In this document: positions 32,874-36,850 of the stretch, piece by piece
How positions within the stretch are numbered: the first letter of the stretch is position 1
How the letters are laid out: the number at the start of each line of letters is the position of its first letter
Source of the DNA: an uncultured Alphaproteobacteria bacterium
Lineage (GTDB): Bacteria; Pseudomonadota; Alphaproteobacteria; HIMB59; GCA-002718135
Direction: 5' to 3'
Length of the DNA stretch: 64,000 bases
Assembly (NCBI GenBank): GCA_902585605.1
Contig: CACIED010000004.1
Span: forward strand, 1,637 to 65,636
The notes under the pieces: model-generated
Databases searched by the model: none
The model's input: only the letters and a program-made list of their open reading frames with translations
Told to the model about the DNA's origin: nothing
Translations under genes and position numbers: made by a program

Positions 32874-33795
32874 GATAAGTGGAGTTTTCAGTGCAGCTTT
32901 AACTCCAGTTAAATCTGATCTTACAATTAATCAGGATCTTTATTTACGTCATTGTCAGCATCTTATGAGACAAGGCCATGATGGTCTTGCAATTTTTGGC
33001 ACGACAGGTGAGGCAAATTCATTTAGTCTTGTTGAAAAAAAAAGTAATATAGAGTTCTTAATAGAAAATAGAATTGATTCAAAAGTTTTGATACCAGGTA
33101 CTGGATCATCTTCTTTAAATGATGCCATTGCAATGACAAAGCATGCTTCAAAAATGAATGTTAGGGCGGTTTTGCTTTTGCCCCCATTCTTTTATAAAAA
33201 TGTAACAGATGAAGGTGTTATAAATTATTATAGAAATATTATTGAAAGTGTTGAAAACAGTAATTTTCAATATTTACTTTATCACATTCCTCAGAATACT
33301 TATGTTCCAATTAATTTTAAAATAATTGAAACATTGTTAAAACTATATCCAAACAACGTTGTTGGATTGAAAGACTCAAGTGGAAATTATGATAATATGT
33401 TAAAATTAATTAAATATTTTAATGATTTTGCTGTTTTTTGTGGAGATGACTCTATTGCTTTAAATGTAGTTAAAAGGGGAGGGGCTGGAGCAATAACTGC
33501 AGGTACAAATGTATCTGGTAAATTATTGTGTCATATTTTAAAAAATTTCAATAATGAAAACAATTTAAAAAATTTTAATGAATTACAAGATCTTCAAATT
33601 AAAATTAGGAAAACTGTTACTTCAGTAGAGTTAATAAGTTTAATGAAAGCTTTTTTTTCTATAGAAGATAATATACCTGAGTGGAACAATGTGCTACCGC
33701 CTTTAAAAAAAATTGAAGATCCCAAAAATCATAAAACTGTTTTGCTACTAAAAGAATTAGTAAATAAGATAGATCCGCTAATATCGAATTCTTGA
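32866..33795 (+). CDS. DapA/NanA-family class I aldolase (substrate uncertain)
   Basis: GTTGEA, LYHIP (catalytic Tyr), GLKDSSG (Schiff-base Lys). Confidence 0.85.
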   Translation: MLKISGVFSAALTPVKSDLTINQDLYLRHCQHLMRQGHDGLAIFGTTGEANSFSLVEKKSNIEFLIENRIDSKVLIPGTGSSSLNDAIAMTKHASKMNVRAVLLLPPFFYKNVTDEGVINYYRNIIESVENSNFQYLLYHIPQNTYVPINFKIIETLLKLYPNNVVGLKDSSGNYDNMLKLIKYFNDFAVFCGDDSIALNVVKRGGAGAITAGTNVSGKLLCHILKNFNNENNLKNFNELQDLQIKIRKTVTSVELISLMKAFFSIEDNIPEWNNVLPPLKKIEDPKNHKTVLLLKELVNKIDPLISNS

Positions 33796-34137
33796 ATTAA
33801 AAAATTTTTTAGCTAGACCTGAAATTAAATTTTGAACAGGTTTAAGAAAAACTGCAAACCCAATACAGTCAGTAAAAAATCCAGGAGTAATTAATAGTAA
33901 ACCTGATACTAATAGAAATATACCACCCTTTATTTCTTCAGTGGGCATTACACCTTGAGATAAATTTCTTTGTGCATCAAACAATAATTTAACTCCTTGT
34001 CTTCGTACAAGAAATATTCCAACTAAAGCAGTAGTAAGTATAATTGCAATAGTATTTAAAATTCCTATACTAGAGCCAATTGTAATAAAAATACTTATTT
34101 CAATAATCGGAATTATTATAAAGGCTAGAAAAATCAC
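33778..34137 (-). CDS. fxsA: FxsA family membrane protein
   Basis: PIIEISIFITIG, LLITPGFFTD. Confidence 0.9.
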   Translation of the reverse strand: MIFLAFIIIPIIEISIFITIGSSIGILNTIAIILTTALVGIFLVRRQGVKLLFDAQRNLSQGVMPTEEIKGGIFLLVSGLLLITPGFFTDCIGFAVFLKPVQNLISGLAKKFFNSRIRY

Positions 34138-35138
34138 TAGCGTACTATACCAGTTTTTTCATCCTCAATGTTTTTTTCTATTTTATTCTCAAATTCTCTT
34201 AATCTTTTATAGACACTAGCTAATTCAATAATTGTAGGCCATGCTCTAAATAAGTATTGAAGTGAACCTTCTACTCTTCCGAAAGCTCTTATAATTTGTT
34301 GCATAACACCGAGTGTCATTACTCCAGCTACAATTGCTGGCGCTAAAAAAATGTAAGCAGCAAGAACGTTAGCTTGTAGATAGGCTAATCTACCTATACT
34401 AAAATAGAGATAGTACAAATAACTTTTGAAGTGAATTTGCCTTACACCATCAAAAAGTTCTTCTAAAGATTTAGGTCTAATACTTCCATCATCCTCAGCA
34501 ATAACCAAAATTTTTCTGTAAGCCGCTTCTTTCTTTTGAAGATCATATTCAATCCCTACTAATCTTAATAACCATGCTAGTACAATCATTAAAATTGTAC
34601 CACCTACTGCCCATATAAACGCTCCAGATACTAAACCATACTGCCAGTCACCAAACCACAAGATCGGTATACCAACTGAAAGAGTCATTAAAAGAGGGAA
34701 AAACTCTACTAGAACCAAAACTGACTCAATTAAGCTTGTTCCAAGACCTTCCATAATTCTACTAAACTTTATGGTATCTTCTTGAACCCTTTGACTTGCA
34801 CCTTCAATAGTTCTCGCTTGATCATAAACACTATGGTACCACTCAACCATTGCAGTTCTCCATCTAAAAAGAAAATGTGAAGTTAGAAATGAAATTGCTA
34901 GTCCTAATGCAATTGAAATAGCAGCTAATTGAGCAAAGCTAAAAAGAGCTCCCATATATTCTTGCATGGTTATAGCATTTGGCGTTCCAAGTGCTTTTTG
35001 AATCATGTCGTAAAATTCACCAAACCATTCATTTATTTGTACATCGATTTGAACTTGAACCCATATAGAAGTAAGAATAACTACAGATCCTACATAAGCC
35101 CACACGTACCATTTTGGTTCAGTGAAAAATTTAAACAT
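34137..35138 (-). CDS. sbmA: SbmA/BacA-like peptide transporter
   Basis: INEWFGEFYD, FRWRTAM, IEGASQRVQEDT, QKKEAAYRK, QIIRAFGRV. Confidence 0.9.
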   Translation of the reverse strand: MFKFFTEPKWYVWAYVGSVVILTSIWVQVQIDVQINEWFGEFYDMIQKALGTPNAITMQEYMGALFSFAQLAAISIALGLAISFLTSHFLFRWRTAMVEWYHSVYDQARTIEGASQRVQEDTIKFSRIMEGLGTSLIESVLVLVEFFPLLMTLSVGIPILWFGDWQYGLVSGAFIWAVGGTILMIVLAWLLRLVGIEYDLQKKEAAYRKILVIAEDDGSIRPKSLEELFDGVRQIHFKSYLYYLYFSIGRLAYLQANVLAAYIFLAPAIVAGVMTLGVMQQIIRAFGRVEGSLQYLFRAWPTIIELASVYKRLREFENKIEKNIEDEKTGIVR

Positions 35139-35189
35139 TTAATATATATAGATTTAATTGTTATTAAAAAAAGAAGCTGAAAGTATTAG

Positions 35190-35273
35190 TTATTTCTTCT
35201 TTTGACGTTTCTTGTTTCTTCTATATTTAGAGCCTCTTTTACGTCTACCTCTATGTTTTTTTGGATATCCCAT
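35190..35273 (-). CDS. 27-aa Lys/Arg-rich peptide (not in the ORF track)
   Basis: ATG..TAA frame MGYPKKHRGRRKRGSKYRRNKKRQKKK. Fills most of the lysR-sbmA gap and has a promoter-like sequence upstream. Confidence 0.7.
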   Translation of the reverse strand: MGYPKKHRGRRKRGSKYRRNKKRQKKK

Positions 35274-35284
35274 AATATAGATAC

Positions 35285-35312
35285 GGTATACAAAAATAAA
35301 AAATTAAGTCAA
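35285..35312 (-). promoter_or_regulatory. Putative sigma70 promoter for the 27-aa ORF
   Basis: Minus strand TTGACT, 16-nt spacer, TATACC, ending 11 nt before the ATG. Confidence 0.4.
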
Positions 35313-35315
35313 AGA

Positions 35316-36203
35316 CTAATAGTGCCAATCTTTAGCTTCATTAAATAAAAAATCCCTAAAAACTTCAAGTCTTCTATCATTTTTAAAAGATTCAGAATAA
35401 ACAAAGTATGTTTGATATGATGGGCCTTCTAAGTTTGGTAGAACGCGTACAAGTTGAGGTTTGTCTGAAACCATATAATCGGGCAAAGATGCTAAACCAC
35501 CACCTTTTTCAACAGCAAGTGACATCGCATAAATACTATTTACTCTAAATTTAGGTCTTCTTTTTACACCTTCTTTACCGATTTTTAATATCCAGTCAAT
35601 ATTTGAGATAGGAGAAGGTAAGCCAGCTCCAAAGCAGATTAAATCATGTTTATCTAAATCATTAACATTTCTTGGTATGCCACTTTTCTGCAAATAATCT
35701 GAAGAACCATAAATATGGTTGTGAAAGTTAACAAATTTTTTAAAAATTAAATTTGCTTGTGTTGGTTTTTTTACTCTAACTGCAACATCAGCTACTCTTG
35801 CTGCTAGATCAACTTCTTCGTCGCTCATTACAAGACTTACATCAATTTCAGGATACTGATTAGCAAATTTATTTATTCTTGGAGTTAACCAAGTTGAACC
35901 AAAACCAACTGTTGTACTTACAGTTAATTTTCCAACTGGTTTAGTTTTTTTATCTAATAATTTTTTTTCAAAATCGGAAATAGAAAAATTAATTTGATTT
36001 ACAGTATTAAATAAATTTTCACCTTGCTCTGTTAATCTTACGCCTTTTTGATGTCTTATAAATAAAGGTGTTTTTAAGTCATATTCGAGATCTTGTATTT
36101 GTCTGCTAAGTGCGGATTGACTGATATTAAGTTTAGCACTTGCTTTAGAAATACTTCTTGATATTGCAATTTCGTAAAATGATTTTAATTTATCCCAGTC
36201 CAT
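35316..36203 (-). CDS. LysR-family regulator, LsrB/VtlR-like
   Basis: MDWDKLK..SQSALSRQI HTH, VGFGSTWL, and a C-terminal VFRDFL...KDWHY resembling the conserved alphaproteobacterial LsrB/VtlR clade. Confidence 0.85.
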   Translation of the reverse strand: MDWDKLKSFYEIAISRSISKASAKLNISQSALSRQIQDLEYDLKTPLFIRHQKGVRLTEQGENLFNTVNQINFSISDFEKKLLDKKTKPVGKLTVSTTVGFGSTWLTPRINKFANQYPEIDVSLVMSDEEVDLAARVADVAVRVKKPTQANLIFKKFVNFHNHIYGSSDYLQKSGIPRNVNDLDKHDLICFGAGLPSPISNIDWILKIGKEGVKRRPKFRVNSIYAMSLAVEKGGGLASLPDYMVSDKPQLVRVLPNLEGPSYQTYFVYSESFKNDRRLEVFRDFLFNEAKDWHY

Positions 36204-36850
36204 TATCTTAAGGAATTTATAATTTCGCTATATTTTTTTTGATTATGAGATAATAAATAAGATCCTACTGCTAACACATTAGCACCATTATCTTTACATA
36301 TTTTTGCATTTTCATTATTTACTCCACCATCAACAGCTATGTCGTAGTTATAATTATTATTTTTTCTAATTTCATCTAAATCTTTAATTTTTTTCACTTG
36401 CTCATGCATAAATTTTTGACCACCAAAACCAGGTGTGACTGTCATAACTATTATTTGTTGCACTTTACTTAATAAATGATCAATATCTGCAATATTTACC
36501 TTAGGGTGAATGGCTATTCCTGCTTTAATTTCAGTATCACTTATCATTTTAATAATTTCTTCTGGGTTATCATCAGCCTCAGGATGAAAAGTAATGATAT
36601 CTGAGCCAGCTTCTACAAATTCATTGATATATTTCTTTACCGGTTTAATCATGAGATGCACATCTAAAATTTTAGAGGTAACCTTTCTTAATGATTTAAC
36701 TATATTTGGTCCAAAAGTAATATTGGGGACATAGTGACCATCCATGATGTCTATATGAATATAATCAGCGCCATTTAGATCTAAAGATCTAACTTCTTCT
36801 TCTAATTTAAGAATATCTGCTGATAATATTGATGGTGATATTTTTATCAT
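36203..36850 (-). CDS. rpe: Ribulose-phosphate 3-epimerase
   Basis: ISPSILSAD, HIDIMDGHYVPNITFG, MTVTPGFGGQKF, VDGG. Confidence 0.96.
   Translation of the reverse strand: MIKISPSILSADILKLEEEVRSLDLNGADYIHIDIMDGHYVPNITFGPNIVKSLRKVTSKILDVHLMIKPVKKYINEFVEAGSDIITFHPEADDNPEEIIKMISDTEIKAGIAIHPKVNIADIDHLLSKVQQIIVMTVTPGFGGQKFMHEQVKKIKDLDEIRKNNNYNYDIAVDGGVNNENAKICKDNGANVLAVGSYLLSHNQKKYSEIINSLR

What the first reader, a model, noticed from the sequence alone, without database searches (positions are those of the whole stretch)
35190..35273. Unannotated 27-aa peptide with 16 Lys/Arg and no acidic residue
Seen: MGYPKKHRGRRKRGSKYRRNKKRQKKK (9 K, 7 R) with a promoter-like TTGACT-N16-TATACC just upstream; it is below the ORF-track cutoff. 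Known: tiny basic proteins of this composition include lineage-specific ribosomal proteins (bS22, bTHX, eL41-like) and nucleic-acid-condensing peptides. Inference: a candidate novel ribosomal or nucleoid micro-protein, or a leader peptide controlling sbmA (a U-rich tract follows the stop).
Basis: partly seen in the sequence, partly recalled or inferred. Interest (0 to 1): 0.62.

Follow-up and report, generated by a model that had tools for sequence, protein, structure and literature searches.

The report
Conserved 27-residue polycationic micro-protein gene
A real, unannotated gene for an almost invariant 27-residue lysine/arginine protein is present in nearly all SAR11 and HIMB59/AEGEAN-169 ocean bacteria and, in longer form, in their phages; it most likely binds the ribosome or another RNA, and it is not a leader peptide for sbmA.

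Summary
The ORF is real. It lies on the minus strand at 35273..35190, and the quoted promoter and U-tract are present. It is the most basic of 5083 small ATG ORFs in its genome.

It is a protein-coding gene under strong purifying selection:
- 91 distinct coding sequences give only 10 protein variants, all exactly 27 aa.
- 26 of 27 third codon positions vary.
- 35 different DNA sequences encode the identical protein.

It is single-copy in 48/51 genomes of its own order and 129/138 Pelagibacteraceae. It is absent from about 700 other sampled Proteobacteria.

At least 8 different downstream contexts, several convergent, rule out an sbmA leader. In strain HIMB5 it is the "uORF-5" motif of Stav et al. 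2019, which was read there as a cis-regulatory uORF.

It matches no bTHX, bS22, bL37 or eL41 model, although typed controls did.

New here: 16 phage contigs carry C-terminally extended copies that are also under purifying selection. One sits inside a tRNA array and others sit near a phage GroES.

Best reading (about 0.5): a lineage-specific ribosome-bound micro-protein that phages copy, as they copy bS21. A general nucleic-acid polycation is the main rival. No expression data could be obtained.

The parts
35190..35273 (-). Coding sequence of the 27-aa polycationic micro-protein (ATG 35273-35271, TAA 35192-35190)
   Evidence: Translation is. The protein is 100 % identical across the genus and several sister genera, and 78 % identical in family f2 and in Pelagibacteraceae. 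26 of 27 third codon positions vary, against 9 of 27 second positions.
35307..35312 (-). -35 hexamer TTGACT, 3 nt after the stop codon of the upstream LysR gene
   Evidence: Coordinates are. TTGAC is kept at the same distance from the ATG in loci where the upstream gene differs (L027, L043, L045). The promoters of rpmH and rpsL in the same genome carry the same -35 hexamer.
35285..35290 (-). -10-like hexamer TATACC, 16-nt spacer from the -35
   Evidence: Coordinates are. The variants TATACC, TATACA, TATAAA, TATATG and TATAGG sit at the same place in relatives. The generic scan did not call it.
35274..35284 (-). 11-nt stretch between the -10 and the ATG, with no Shine-Dalgarno sequence. This implies a leaderless or near-leaderless mRNA (inferred, not shown).
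   Evidence: Sequence is. In family f2 the equivalent stretch is 8-10 nt and unusually G+C-rich (gcctcgct, cgccgtc, cccctcct).
35166..35204 (-). Weak terminator-like element: AAAAGAAG at the 3' end of the CDS pairs with CUUCUUUU and is followed by a U-run
   Evidence: The fold is. The whole transcript folds no better than shuffles (z = -0.29). A similar 'cttctttttt' follows the stop in most genus-level relatives. The strict terminator scan did not call it.
35316..36203 (-). Context only: upstream co-oriented LysR-family regulator
   Evidence: Pfam HTH_1 and LysR_substrate. It lies upstream of the peptide in 79 of the f1-type loci, is missing in 6 f1 loci, and is absent from all f2, Pelagibacter and phage loci.
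34137..35138 (-). Context only: downstream co-oriented SbmA/BacA-family transporter gene
   Evidence: Pfam PF05992, E = 6.6e-129. It is the downstream neighbour in 57 of 133 loci only.

Best explanation
This is an autonomous, constitutively promoted gene for a 27-residue, +16-charged protein. The family pattern is MGYPKKHRGRRK-x-GS followed by a Lys/Arg tail, and the length is always 27 aa. It is a near-universal single-copy gene of Pelagibacteraceae (SAR11) and of the HIMB59/AEGEAN-169 order. The most likely mechanism is that the peptide docks along its whole length into a specific, conserved pocket of structured RNA. The best candidate is the ribosome, making it a lineage-specific mini ribosomal protein of the bTHX, bS22, bL37 or eL41 kind. 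Phages of these hosts have copied the gene repeatedly and added a C-terminal tail. By analogy with pelagiphage bS21, the phage copy would replace or join the host peptide during infection. SHOWN: the gene is real, it is under strong protein-level purifying selection, it is independent of its neighbours, it is restricted to these lineages and their phages, and it belongs to no known family. INFERRED: RNA or ribosome binding, replacement by the phage copy, and a leaderless mRNA. The confidence of 0.5 refers to the ribosome/RNA-binding mechanism. That it is a genuine functional protein gene I put at about 0.97.
For: (1) Protein-level selection. 133 loci give 91 distinct CDS and only 10 protein variants. 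Third codon positions vary at 26 of 27 codons, second positions at 9 of 27. 35 distinct CDS encode the identical protein, with mean synonymous difference 0.44 and a maximum of 0.99.
(2) Non-basic residues and length are fixed. G2, Y3, P4, H7, G9, G14 and S15 are invariant, and so is the 27-aa length. This is the pattern of a peptide that fits a specific site, not of a generic polycation.
(3) Core-gene distribution. It is present in 48/51 genomes of the order (22/22 high-quality) and in 129/138 Pelagibacteraceae, always as one copy.
(4) Autonomy. It has its own conserved -35/-10 and at least 8 downstream contexts, several of them convergent.
(5) Promoter class. rpmH, rpmJ and rpsL in the same genome have the same TTGAC[TA] -35 and a short leader or C/G-rich stretch after the -10.
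(6) Phage copies. 16 viral contigs carry it, in 6 sequence types and at least 4 genomic backgrounds. One copy lies inside a 14-tRNA array, directly after tRNA-Asn. Seven lie two genes upstream of a phage Cpn10/GroES. One lies near a 2OG-Fe(II) oxygenase. Others lie in lysogeny modules.
(7) Phage variants track host-lineage variants. Type A is 26/27 identical to this window's peptide, and type F is nearest the Pelagibacter type.
(8) Phage copies are also constrained. In type C, 20 of 22 variable codons are synonymous.
(9) Precedents. Fjoh_1533 of Flavobacterium johnsoniae, a 30-aa 'hypothetical protein' of pI 12.7, turned out to be bS22 by cryo-EM (PMC7797042). Pelagiphage HTVC008M encodes a bS21 that enters ribosomes (PMC6375957).
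Against: There is no direct evidence of expression or of ribosome association. The gene is not in or near any ribosomal-protein operon. It is absent from one Pelagibacterales family (0 of 13 f245 genomes at E <= 1e-5; five of them re-searched at E <= 10 also gave nothing) and from a few Pelagibacter genomes, so it is not indispensable to that type of ribosome. 16S and 23S rRNA show no more nucleotide signatures specific to peptide-carrying lineages than control groupings do: 2 against 0-6 columns for 16S, and 6 against 4-20 for 23S. Codon usage does not resemble a highly expressed class, but the ribosomal genes of this genome do not differ from background either. Lysogeny-module and head-module positions in some phages would fit a DNA-binding role equally well.
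Confidence: 0.5

Rival explanations
1. It is a general nucleic-acid polycation. It neutralises and compacts DNA (nucleoid, or phage DNA in the capsid or during takeover) or coats RNA non-specifically, with no specific ribosomal site.
For: The charge is +16 over 27 residues with no acidic residue. Phage copies sit in a portal-to-capsid region and in exonuclease-to-integrase modules. The gene is not linked to ribosomal operons. No rRNA signature correlates with its presence. Earlier notes of this scan describe a second, unrelated Lys/Arg micro-gene in SAR11 and read it the same way.
Against: Non-specific polycations tolerate substitutions, length changes and K/R shuffling. Here seven non-basic residues and the exact length are invariant across two orders at saturated synonymous divergence. 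The head-region island of the phage also holds a host-type GroES, so it is an auxiliary-gene island rather than a structural slot. Another phage copy lies in a tRNA array.
Confidence: 0.25
2. It is a cis-acting leader peptide or uORF whose translation controls the downstream gene. This covers the first reader's sbmA read-through idea and the 'uORF-5' attenuator reading of Stav et al. 2019.
For: The ORF is short and co-oriented with sbmA, with a U-rich tract after the stop. In Pelagibacter the stop lies 6-8 nt before a co-oriented 237-aa membrane-protein gene. PMC6429828 classed the motif as a cis-regulatory sORF.
Against: The downstream gene is SbmA, an AhpD-like protein, MsrB, or the membrane protein, or else a convergent gene (MFS, TPR, mnmA and others) with nothing to regulate. 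The peptide stays identical throughout. In HIMB5 the cystathionine lyase gene named as the regulated gene is transcribed divergently from the ORF. The ORF also occurs in phage genomes. Every residue is under selection, not only a stalling motif. There are no alternative hairpins, the fold z-score is -0.29 and there is no Rfam hit.
Confidence: 0.04
3. It belongs to a LysR > peptide > SbmA/BacA > FxsA functional block. The cationic peptide would be regulated by the LsrB/VtlR-like regulator and would be a substrate or partner of the SbmA peptide importer.
For: The four genes are co-oriented in the window. LysR precedes the peptide in 79 loci of family f1 and SbmA follows it in 57. SbmA/BacA proteins are known importers of cationic peptides (established knowledge).
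Against: The peptide has no signal sequence or export partner. The block exists in only part of one family. LysR is deleted in 6 f1 loci, SbmA is replaced in more than 20, and neither gene is adjacent in f2, Pelagibacteraceae or phages, yet the peptide is unchanged.
Confidence: 0.05
4. It is a chance ORF in an A-rich intergenic spacer, or a conserved non-coding RNA or DNA element that merely happens to be open.
For: AAA and AGA codons are common in a 29 % GC genome. The ORF is below gene-finder cut-offs and is unnamed in databases. It appears only as JGI 'hypothetical protein' entries, and the window's own variant is absent.
Against: It shows the period-3 substitution pattern and AGA<->CGN and TCN/GGN synonymous swaps with an invariant protein. 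It is an extreme composition outlier. In many Pelagibacter genomes the open frame is exactly 27 codons. There is no RNA structure signal.
Confidence: 0.01

Closest known systems
uORF-5 motif of alpha proteobacterium HIMB5 (Stav et al. 2019, BMC Microbiol 19:66, PMC6429828, Additional files 1 and 3)
   Same: It is the same ORF. The motif is NC_018643.1/446013-445846. In genome G803 (one contig of 1,343,202 bp) the homologue MGYPKKHRGRRKMGSKKRRARKKNKKK lies at 445937-445854 on the same strand, filling that intergenic region. The paper describes the product as enriched in arginine and lysine.
   Different: The paper lists 118 representatives, SAR11 only, and interprets the ORF as a cis-regulatory attenuator of the cystathionine beta-lyase gene. 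Here that gene is divergent from the ORF. The family extends to the HIMB59/AEGEAN-169 order and to phages, in unrelated contexts, which argues for a trans-acting protein.
bS22 (Mycobacterium; Flavobacterium johnsoniae Fjoh_1533), bTHX (Thermus, plastids), bL37 (Actinobacteria, Planctomycetes), eL41
   Same: All are 24-33 aa with pI above 12 and are highly conserved within a lineage. They are stand-alone genes, often unannotated until seen in a ribosome structure (PMC7797042).
   Different: No sequence relationship was found. The typed controls hit their own Pfam and NCBIfam models at E = 1e-12 to 1e-18, whereas three variants of this family hit nothing at E <= 10. A family profile finds no PDB chain at E <= 10. 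With all filters off it finds none of bTHX, bS22, bL37, eL41, bL32, bL34 or bL36. Ribosome binding is not shown for this peptide.
Phage-encoded ribosomal protein bS21 of Pelagibacter phage HTVC008M (Mizuno et al. 2019, PMC6375957)
   Same: It is a small basic host protein copied by phages of the same hosts, it is under purifying selection in the phage, and it was acquired from the host lineage (for this family).
   Different: bS21 is a known ribosomal protein that was shown to enter ribosomes. For this peptide that step is only an analogy. The phage copies here carry extra C-terminal tails of 2-13 residues.
Second SAR11 polycationic micro-gene
   Same: It is an unannotated stand-alone Lys/Arg micro-protein gene conserved in SAR11.
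   Different: It has a different locus (between the fadD-like and carD/cdnL genes), variable length (21-38 aa) and almost pure K/R composition. The present family has fixed length and seven invariant non-basic residues. No comparable second ORF was seen among ATG-started small ORFs of this window's genome.

Membership tests
bTHX (Pfam PF17070, NCBIfam TIGR04560 / NF011339) | Sequence match to the Thx profile | tested here: not met
   There was no hit at E <= 10 for three family variants. A typed Thermus Thx control scored E = 6e-18 (Pfam) and 1e-18 (NCBIfam).
bS22 / mS38 (Pfam PF08213 COX24_C, NCBIfam NF047430) | Sequence match to the bS22 profile | tested here: not met
   There was no hit. 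A typed mycobacterial bS22 control scored E = 4e-12 and 3e-17.
bL37 (NCBIfam NF047428 Myco type, NF047429 Plancto type) | Sequence match to either bL37 profile | tested here: not met
   There was no hit. The typed control scored E = 6.5e-14.
eL41 (Pfam PF05162) | Sequence match to the L41 profile | tested here: not met
   There was no hit. The typed control scored E = 3.9e-12.
Ribosomal protein, in the functional sense | Stoichiometric presence in purified ribosomal subunits, or density in a ribosome structure | not testable with these tools
   I found no Pelagibacter, HIMB59 or AEGEAN-169 ribosome structure or ribosome proteome. The family profile finds no PDB chain.
Ribosomal protein, in the functional sense | Genomic linkage to ribosomal-protein or translation genes | tested here: not met
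   Cellular loci are flanked by LysR, SbmA, an AhpD-like gene, MFS, metC, a membrane protein and mnmA. Only one phage copy lies in a tRNA array.
Ribosomal protein, in the functional sense | rRNA features that co-vary with presence of the protein | tested here: inconclusive
   In 16S, 2 columns are specific to carriers: a 1-nt deletion in a hairpin loop, and G>U in the h44 region (helix assigned from memory of the E. coli sequence, not mapped here). In 23S, 6 columns are specific. Control groupings give 0-6 and 4-20 columns.
Leader peptide / attenuator uORF | Constant association with, and orientation toward, one regulated downstream gene | tested here: not met
   There are at least 8 downstream contexts, several convergent, and also phage contexts.
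Leader peptide / attenuator uORF | Alternative terminator/antiterminator RNA structures | tested here: not met
   The fold z-score is -0.29. There is only one weak A/U-rich stem, and no Rfam match.
uORF-5 motif (Stav et al. 2019) | Same locus, strand and Arg/Lys-rich product in HIMB5 | tested here: met
   The coordinates coincide within NC_018643.1/446013-445846. That G803 is HIMB5 is inferred from the contig length and these coordinates, because the handle itself carries no name.

The most novel reading that the evidence does not exclude
The peptide is a previously unseen ribosomal protein of the ribosomes of SAR11 and HIMB59/AEGEAN-169, the most abundant heterotrophs in the ocean. Their phages carry tail-extended versions that replace it during infection to re-programme host ribosomes. 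This would be a second, independent case of ribosome hijacking by a phage-encoded ribosomal protein, alongside bS21. It would also be a shared derived character bearing on the disputed SAR11-HIMB59 relationship.
Probability: 0.3. Interest if true: 0.8.

Novelty: new variant of a known kind. Interest (0 to 1): 0.62.

Why it matters
SAR11 and its HIMB59/AEGEAN-169 neighbours are among the most numerous cells on Earth, and their genomes are models of streamlining. A gene kept invariant in such genomes, yet absent from NCBI annotation and from Pfam and NCBIfam, is almost certainly important.

- If it is ribosomal, it adds a lineage-specific component to a ribosome that has never been solved. It would also explain why phages of these hosts bother to carry it.
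- The phage copies give a new host-derived auxiliary gene. Because their variants follow host variants, they may also serve as a host-linkage marker for uncultured pelagiphages.
- The shared presence in Pelagibacteraceae and HIMB59 bears on the debated relationship of these lineages. There is also residual synteny with an MFS gene. The gene is absent from one Pelagibacterales family.
- It corrects a published interpretation (uORF-5 as an attenuator).

Tried and rejected
- **Family and structure searches.** Pfam, NCBIfam and PDB searches with the single peptide and with profiles gave no hit. A filter-free hmmsearch of the family profile against the genome's own six-frame translation found only the gene itself; the next hit had E = 5.6. 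Against typed bTHX, bS22, bL37, eL41 and the genome's bL32, bL34 and bL36 it found nothing.
- **bL32 resemblance.** A resemblance of the N-terminus to bL32 (MAVPKRK...) was considered. It was rejected as no more than 'M..PK' plus basic residues.
- **Weak class-level hits.** Hits at E = 0.001-1 across the class were inspected. They are out-of-frame or arginine-rich noise in GC-rich genomes.
- **RNA element.** There was no Rfam hit and no fold signal.
- **rRNA signature test.** 16S and 23S showed no excess over control groupings.
- **Codon usage.** It is uninformative, because ribosomal genes match background in this genome. The peptide gene does have an excess of CGT/CGC, AAG and GGC, which breaks up A-runs.
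- **GenBank phages.** tblastn of the phage variant against GenBank phages found nothing, probably because of low-complexity masking. The cultured relative HTVC023P truly lacks the gene.
- Structure prediction needs at least 30 aa.
- **Literature.** Searches for SAR11 small-protein, Ribo-seq or ribosome cryo-EM work found nothing on this gene except Stav et al. 2019.

Full report
**1. Observation**

The ORF exists exactly at 35190-35273, but on the minus strand (ATG 35273, TAA 35190-35192). It encodes MGYPKKHRGRRKRGSKYRRNKKRQKKK. That is 9 K, 7 R, 1 H and no acidic residue; predicted mass is 3457 Da and net charge about +15.6.

- TTGACT at 35312-35307.
- A 16-nt spacer.
- TATACC at 35290-35285.
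- 11 nt to the ATG, with no Shine-Dalgarno sequence.
- CTTCTTTTTTT at 35176-35166 after the stop.

The generic promoter and terminator scans do not call these sites. The transcript folds no better than shuffled sequence (z = -0.29).

Flanking genes on the same strand:

| Gene | Window coordinates |
|---|---|
| Ribulose-phosphate epimerase | 36203-36850 |
| LysR-family regulator | 35316-36203 |
| SbmA/BacA-family transporter (E = 6.6e-129) | 34137-35138 |
| FxsA | 33778-34137 |

In the 1.46-Mb, 29 % GC genome the ORF is the single extreme outlier among 5083 ATG ORFs of 20-45 aa. It has 59 % K+R; the next has 45 %. It is more basic than the genome's own bL34 and bL36, which appear in the same list.

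**2. It is a protein-coding gene under strong purifying selection**

Six-frame searches gave these counts:

| Set searched | Genomes with one copy |
|---|---|
| 41 genomes (own + 40 relatives) | 37 of 41 |
| Genomes of the order, at least 85 % complete | 48 of 51 (22 of 22 high-quality) |

The protein is 100 % identical across the genus and several sister genera. It is 78 % identical in the second family.

From 133 loci I extracted 91 distinct coding sequences that encode only 10 protein variants. All are exactly 27 residues. Variable sites by codon position:

| Codon position | Variable sites (of 27) |
|---|---|
| First (includes AGA<->CGN synonymous changes) | 13 |
| Second | 9 |
| Third | 26 |

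Thirty-five different DNA sequences encode the identical protein. Their mean synonymous difference is 0.44 and reaches 0.99.

M1, G2, Y3, P4, K5, K6, H7, R8, G9, R10, R11, K12, G14, S15, R18, K25 and K27 are invariant. In many Pelagibacter genomes the open frame is exactly 27 codons, which fixes the start codon. Rfam finds nothing in the region.

**3. Distribution**

Record titles place the window's relatives among uncultured 'MarineAlpha5' / HIMB59-type alphaproteobacteria. Further homologues are in Candidatus Pelagibacter.

- In Pelagibacterales, 129 of 138 high-quality genomes of the main family carry one copy.
- None of 13 genomes of a second family does at E <= 1e-5; five of them re-searched at E <= 10 also gave nothing.
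- One complete Pelagibacter genome has a 1-nt deletion in an A-run.
- Nothing credible was found in about 290 other alphaproteobacterial genomes (weak hits inspected).
- Nothing was found in a 400-genome sample of the phylum.
- Three variants exist in JGI/IMG as unnamed or 'hypothetical' proteins. The window's own variant is in no protein collection.

**4. It is not tied to its neighbours**

Clustering of the flanking ORFs of the 133 loci shows the following downstream genes:
- SbmA, in 57 loci.
- An AhpD-like protein, in 19 loci.
- MsrB.
- A 237-aa membrane protein, in Pelagibacter, 6-8 nt after the stop.
- Convergently oriented genes: an MFS transporter, a TPR protein, mnmA and others.

Upstream genes are LysR (79 loci, family f1 only), the epimerase (6 f1 loci where LysR is missing), a divergent MFS gene (f2) or a divergent cystathionine lyase gene (Pelagibacter).

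The TTGAC -35 stays at the same distance from the ATG where the upstream gene differs. This excludes a dedicated sbmA leader. It also weakens the LysR-peptide-SbmA block idea noted earlier in this scan.

**5. Prior notice**

Stav et al. 2019 (PMC6429828) list a 'uORF-5' motif in strain HIMB5 at NC_018643.1/446013-445846. They describe its product as Arg/Lys-rich, report 118 representatives in SAR11 only, and interpret it as an attenuator upstream of cystathionine beta-lyase.

Genome G803 is one contig of 1,343,202 bp. It has the family member at 445937-445854 on the same strand, filling that intergenic region. So uORF-5 is this gene. In that genome the lyase gene is transcribed divergently, so it cannot be regulated by translation of the ORF. 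The co-oriented downstream gene is the unknown membrane protein, which has no Pfam match.

**6. Not a member of any known micro-protein family**

- Pfam, NCBIfam and PDB searches with single sequences and with profiles give nothing at E <= 10.
- In the same runs, typed controls found their own models at E = 1e-12 to 1e-18: Thermus Thx, mycobacterial bS22 and bL37, and eL41.
- With HMMER filters off, the family profile hits only itself in the genome's six-frame translation (E = 4e-14; next hit 5.6).
- It hits none of bTHX, bS22, bL37, eL41 or the genome's own bL32, bL34 and bL36.

**7. Phage copies (new)**

Sixteen IMG/VR contigs encode homologues. All keep the first 21-25 residues and add C-terminal tails, for total lengths of 29-40 aa. 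The contigs have 30-44 % GC. Their genomic backgrounds are genuinely viral:

| Contigs | Position of the peptide gene |
|---|---|
| Seven (type C, L166-like) | Between a portal and a major head protein that is 67 % identical to the capsid protein of Pelagibacter phage HTVC023P. It lies two genes upstream of a phage Cpn10/GroES. HTVC023P itself lacks the peptide. |
| L163 and L170 types | Between a PD-(D/E)XK exonuclease and an integrase |
| L165 | Near a 2OG-Fe(II) oxygenase |
| L174 (81.5-kb fragment, about 37 % of a large phage) | Inside an array of 14 tRNA genes, directly after tRNA-Asn |

Phage variants resemble particular host variants. Type A is 26/27 identical to this window's peptide, and type F is closest to the Pelagibacter type. 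In the seven type-C copies, 20 of 22 variable codons are synonymous, including in the tail.

This is the pattern of a host gene acquired several times by phages and kept functional. It parallels the bS21 of pelagiphage HTVC008M, which enters ribosomes (PMC6375957).

**8. Mechanism**

Shown: the gene is an autonomous, strongly constrained, lineage-wide protein gene, and phages copy it.

Inferred: invariance of the non-basic residues and of the length argues for a defined binding site rather than bulk charge neutralisation. The best precedent is the family of 24-33-aa ribosomal proteins. One of these, bS22 of Flavobacterium johnsoniae, was an unannotated pI-12.7 'hypothetical protein' until cryo-EM placed it between h44 and h45 (PMC7797042).

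Supporting hints:
- The promoter resembles those of rpmH, rpmJ and rpsL in the same genome.
- The phage contexts are a tRNA array and a GroES island.

Against:
- There is no operon linkage.
- The gene is absent from one Pelagibacterales family.
- The rRNA comparison is inconclusive. Two 16S columns (a hairpin-loop deletion, and a G>U in the h44 region; the helix is my reading of the alignment against remembered E. coli sequence, not a mapping) and six 23S columns are specific to carriers. Control groupings give similar numbers.

My estimates:

| Reading | Probability |
|---|---|
| Ribosome / structured-RNA binding | about 0.5 |
| General nucleic-acid polycation | about 0.25 |
| LysR/SbmA module | about 0.05 |
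| cis-regulatory leader | about 0.04 |
| Chance ORF or non-coding element | about 0.01 |
| Roles not listed | the rest |

**9. Limits**

No expression evidence could be gathered. That G803 is HIMB5 and that G025 is HIMB59 are inferences from contig lengths and coordinates.

**10. Verdict**

The 'novel micro-protein' interpretation is supported as far as sequence analysis can go, and the sbmA-leader alternative is rejected. The family is new to the curated libraries. It was noticed once before under a regulatory interpretation that the wider data contradict. Its phage-borne, tail-extended paralogues had not been described in anything I could find.

Noticed in passing
L166 4001-4108 (also L167, L168, L172, L173, L175, L177); L163, L170, L165, L169; L174 4001-4090: Phage-encoded, C-terminally extended homologues of the peptide occur in at least four phage backgrounds. 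One lies inside a 14-tRNA array of a large phage fragment. Seven lie in a portal-to-capsid island that also holds a Cpn10/GroES gene and a GTA-type 3-TM holin.
   Followed up: partly
L161 2855-3015 (genome G803, inferred to be HIMB5, 445854-446014): The published 'uORF-5' attenuator of HIMB5 is this peptide gene. The cystathionine beta-lyase gene it was said to regulate is transcribed divergently from it. The co-oriented gene 8 nt downstream is a 237-aa multi-pass membrane protein with no Pfam match.
   Followed up: yes
16S rRNA alignment, column 1420 (the ACC[CT]GAAG > ACCTTAAG stretch, h44 region as I read it against remembered E. coli sequence) and column 827 (hairpin loop): All nine peptide-carrying genomes (Pelagibacteraceae, HIMB59, AEGEAN-169 type) share U where 11 non-carriers have an invariant G, including the sister Pelagibacterales family. 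They also share a 1-nt loop deletion. Control groupings give similar counts, so this is a lead and not a result.
   Followed up: partly
L159 (genome G797, C1:396729-396808): One complete Pelagibacter genome has a 1-nt deletion in an A-run of the peptide gene (AGAAAACAG > AGAAACAG). The cause is either a homopolymer assembly error or a rare real frameshift.
   Followed up: no
window 35190-35273 and relatives: Relative to both the genome background and the ribosomal-protein genes, the peptide gene over-uses CGT/CGC (32 % against 10 % and 5 %), AAG, GGC and AAC. One reading is that this breaks up long A-runs that could cause slippage. The A7 run CCAAAAAAACA itself tolerates synonymous changes.
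   Followed up: partly
L021-L024, L046-L050 (family f2, HIMB59 type), 8-10 nt before the ATG: The stretch between the -10 (TATAGT or TATAC) and the ATG is strikingly G+C-rich (gcctcgct, cgccgtc, cccctcct) in a genome of about 30 % GC. It resembles the discriminator of stringently controlled promoters. rpmH in the window's genome has a similar GCCCAG after its -10.
   Followed up: no
L125 534-1754; L021 760-1962; L026 downstream: An MFS-type transporter gene lies near the peptide gene in Pelagibacter (beyond metC), in HIMB59 (divergent neighbour) and in two AEGEAN-169-type loci (convergent neighbour). This residual synteny is compatible with vertical inheritance from a common ancestor of the two orders.
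   Followed up: no
window 35316-36203 and 36203-36850: The LysR gene start overlaps the epimerase stop by one base. In 6 related loci the LysR gene is absent and the epimerase gene directly precedes the peptide gene.
   Followed up: partly
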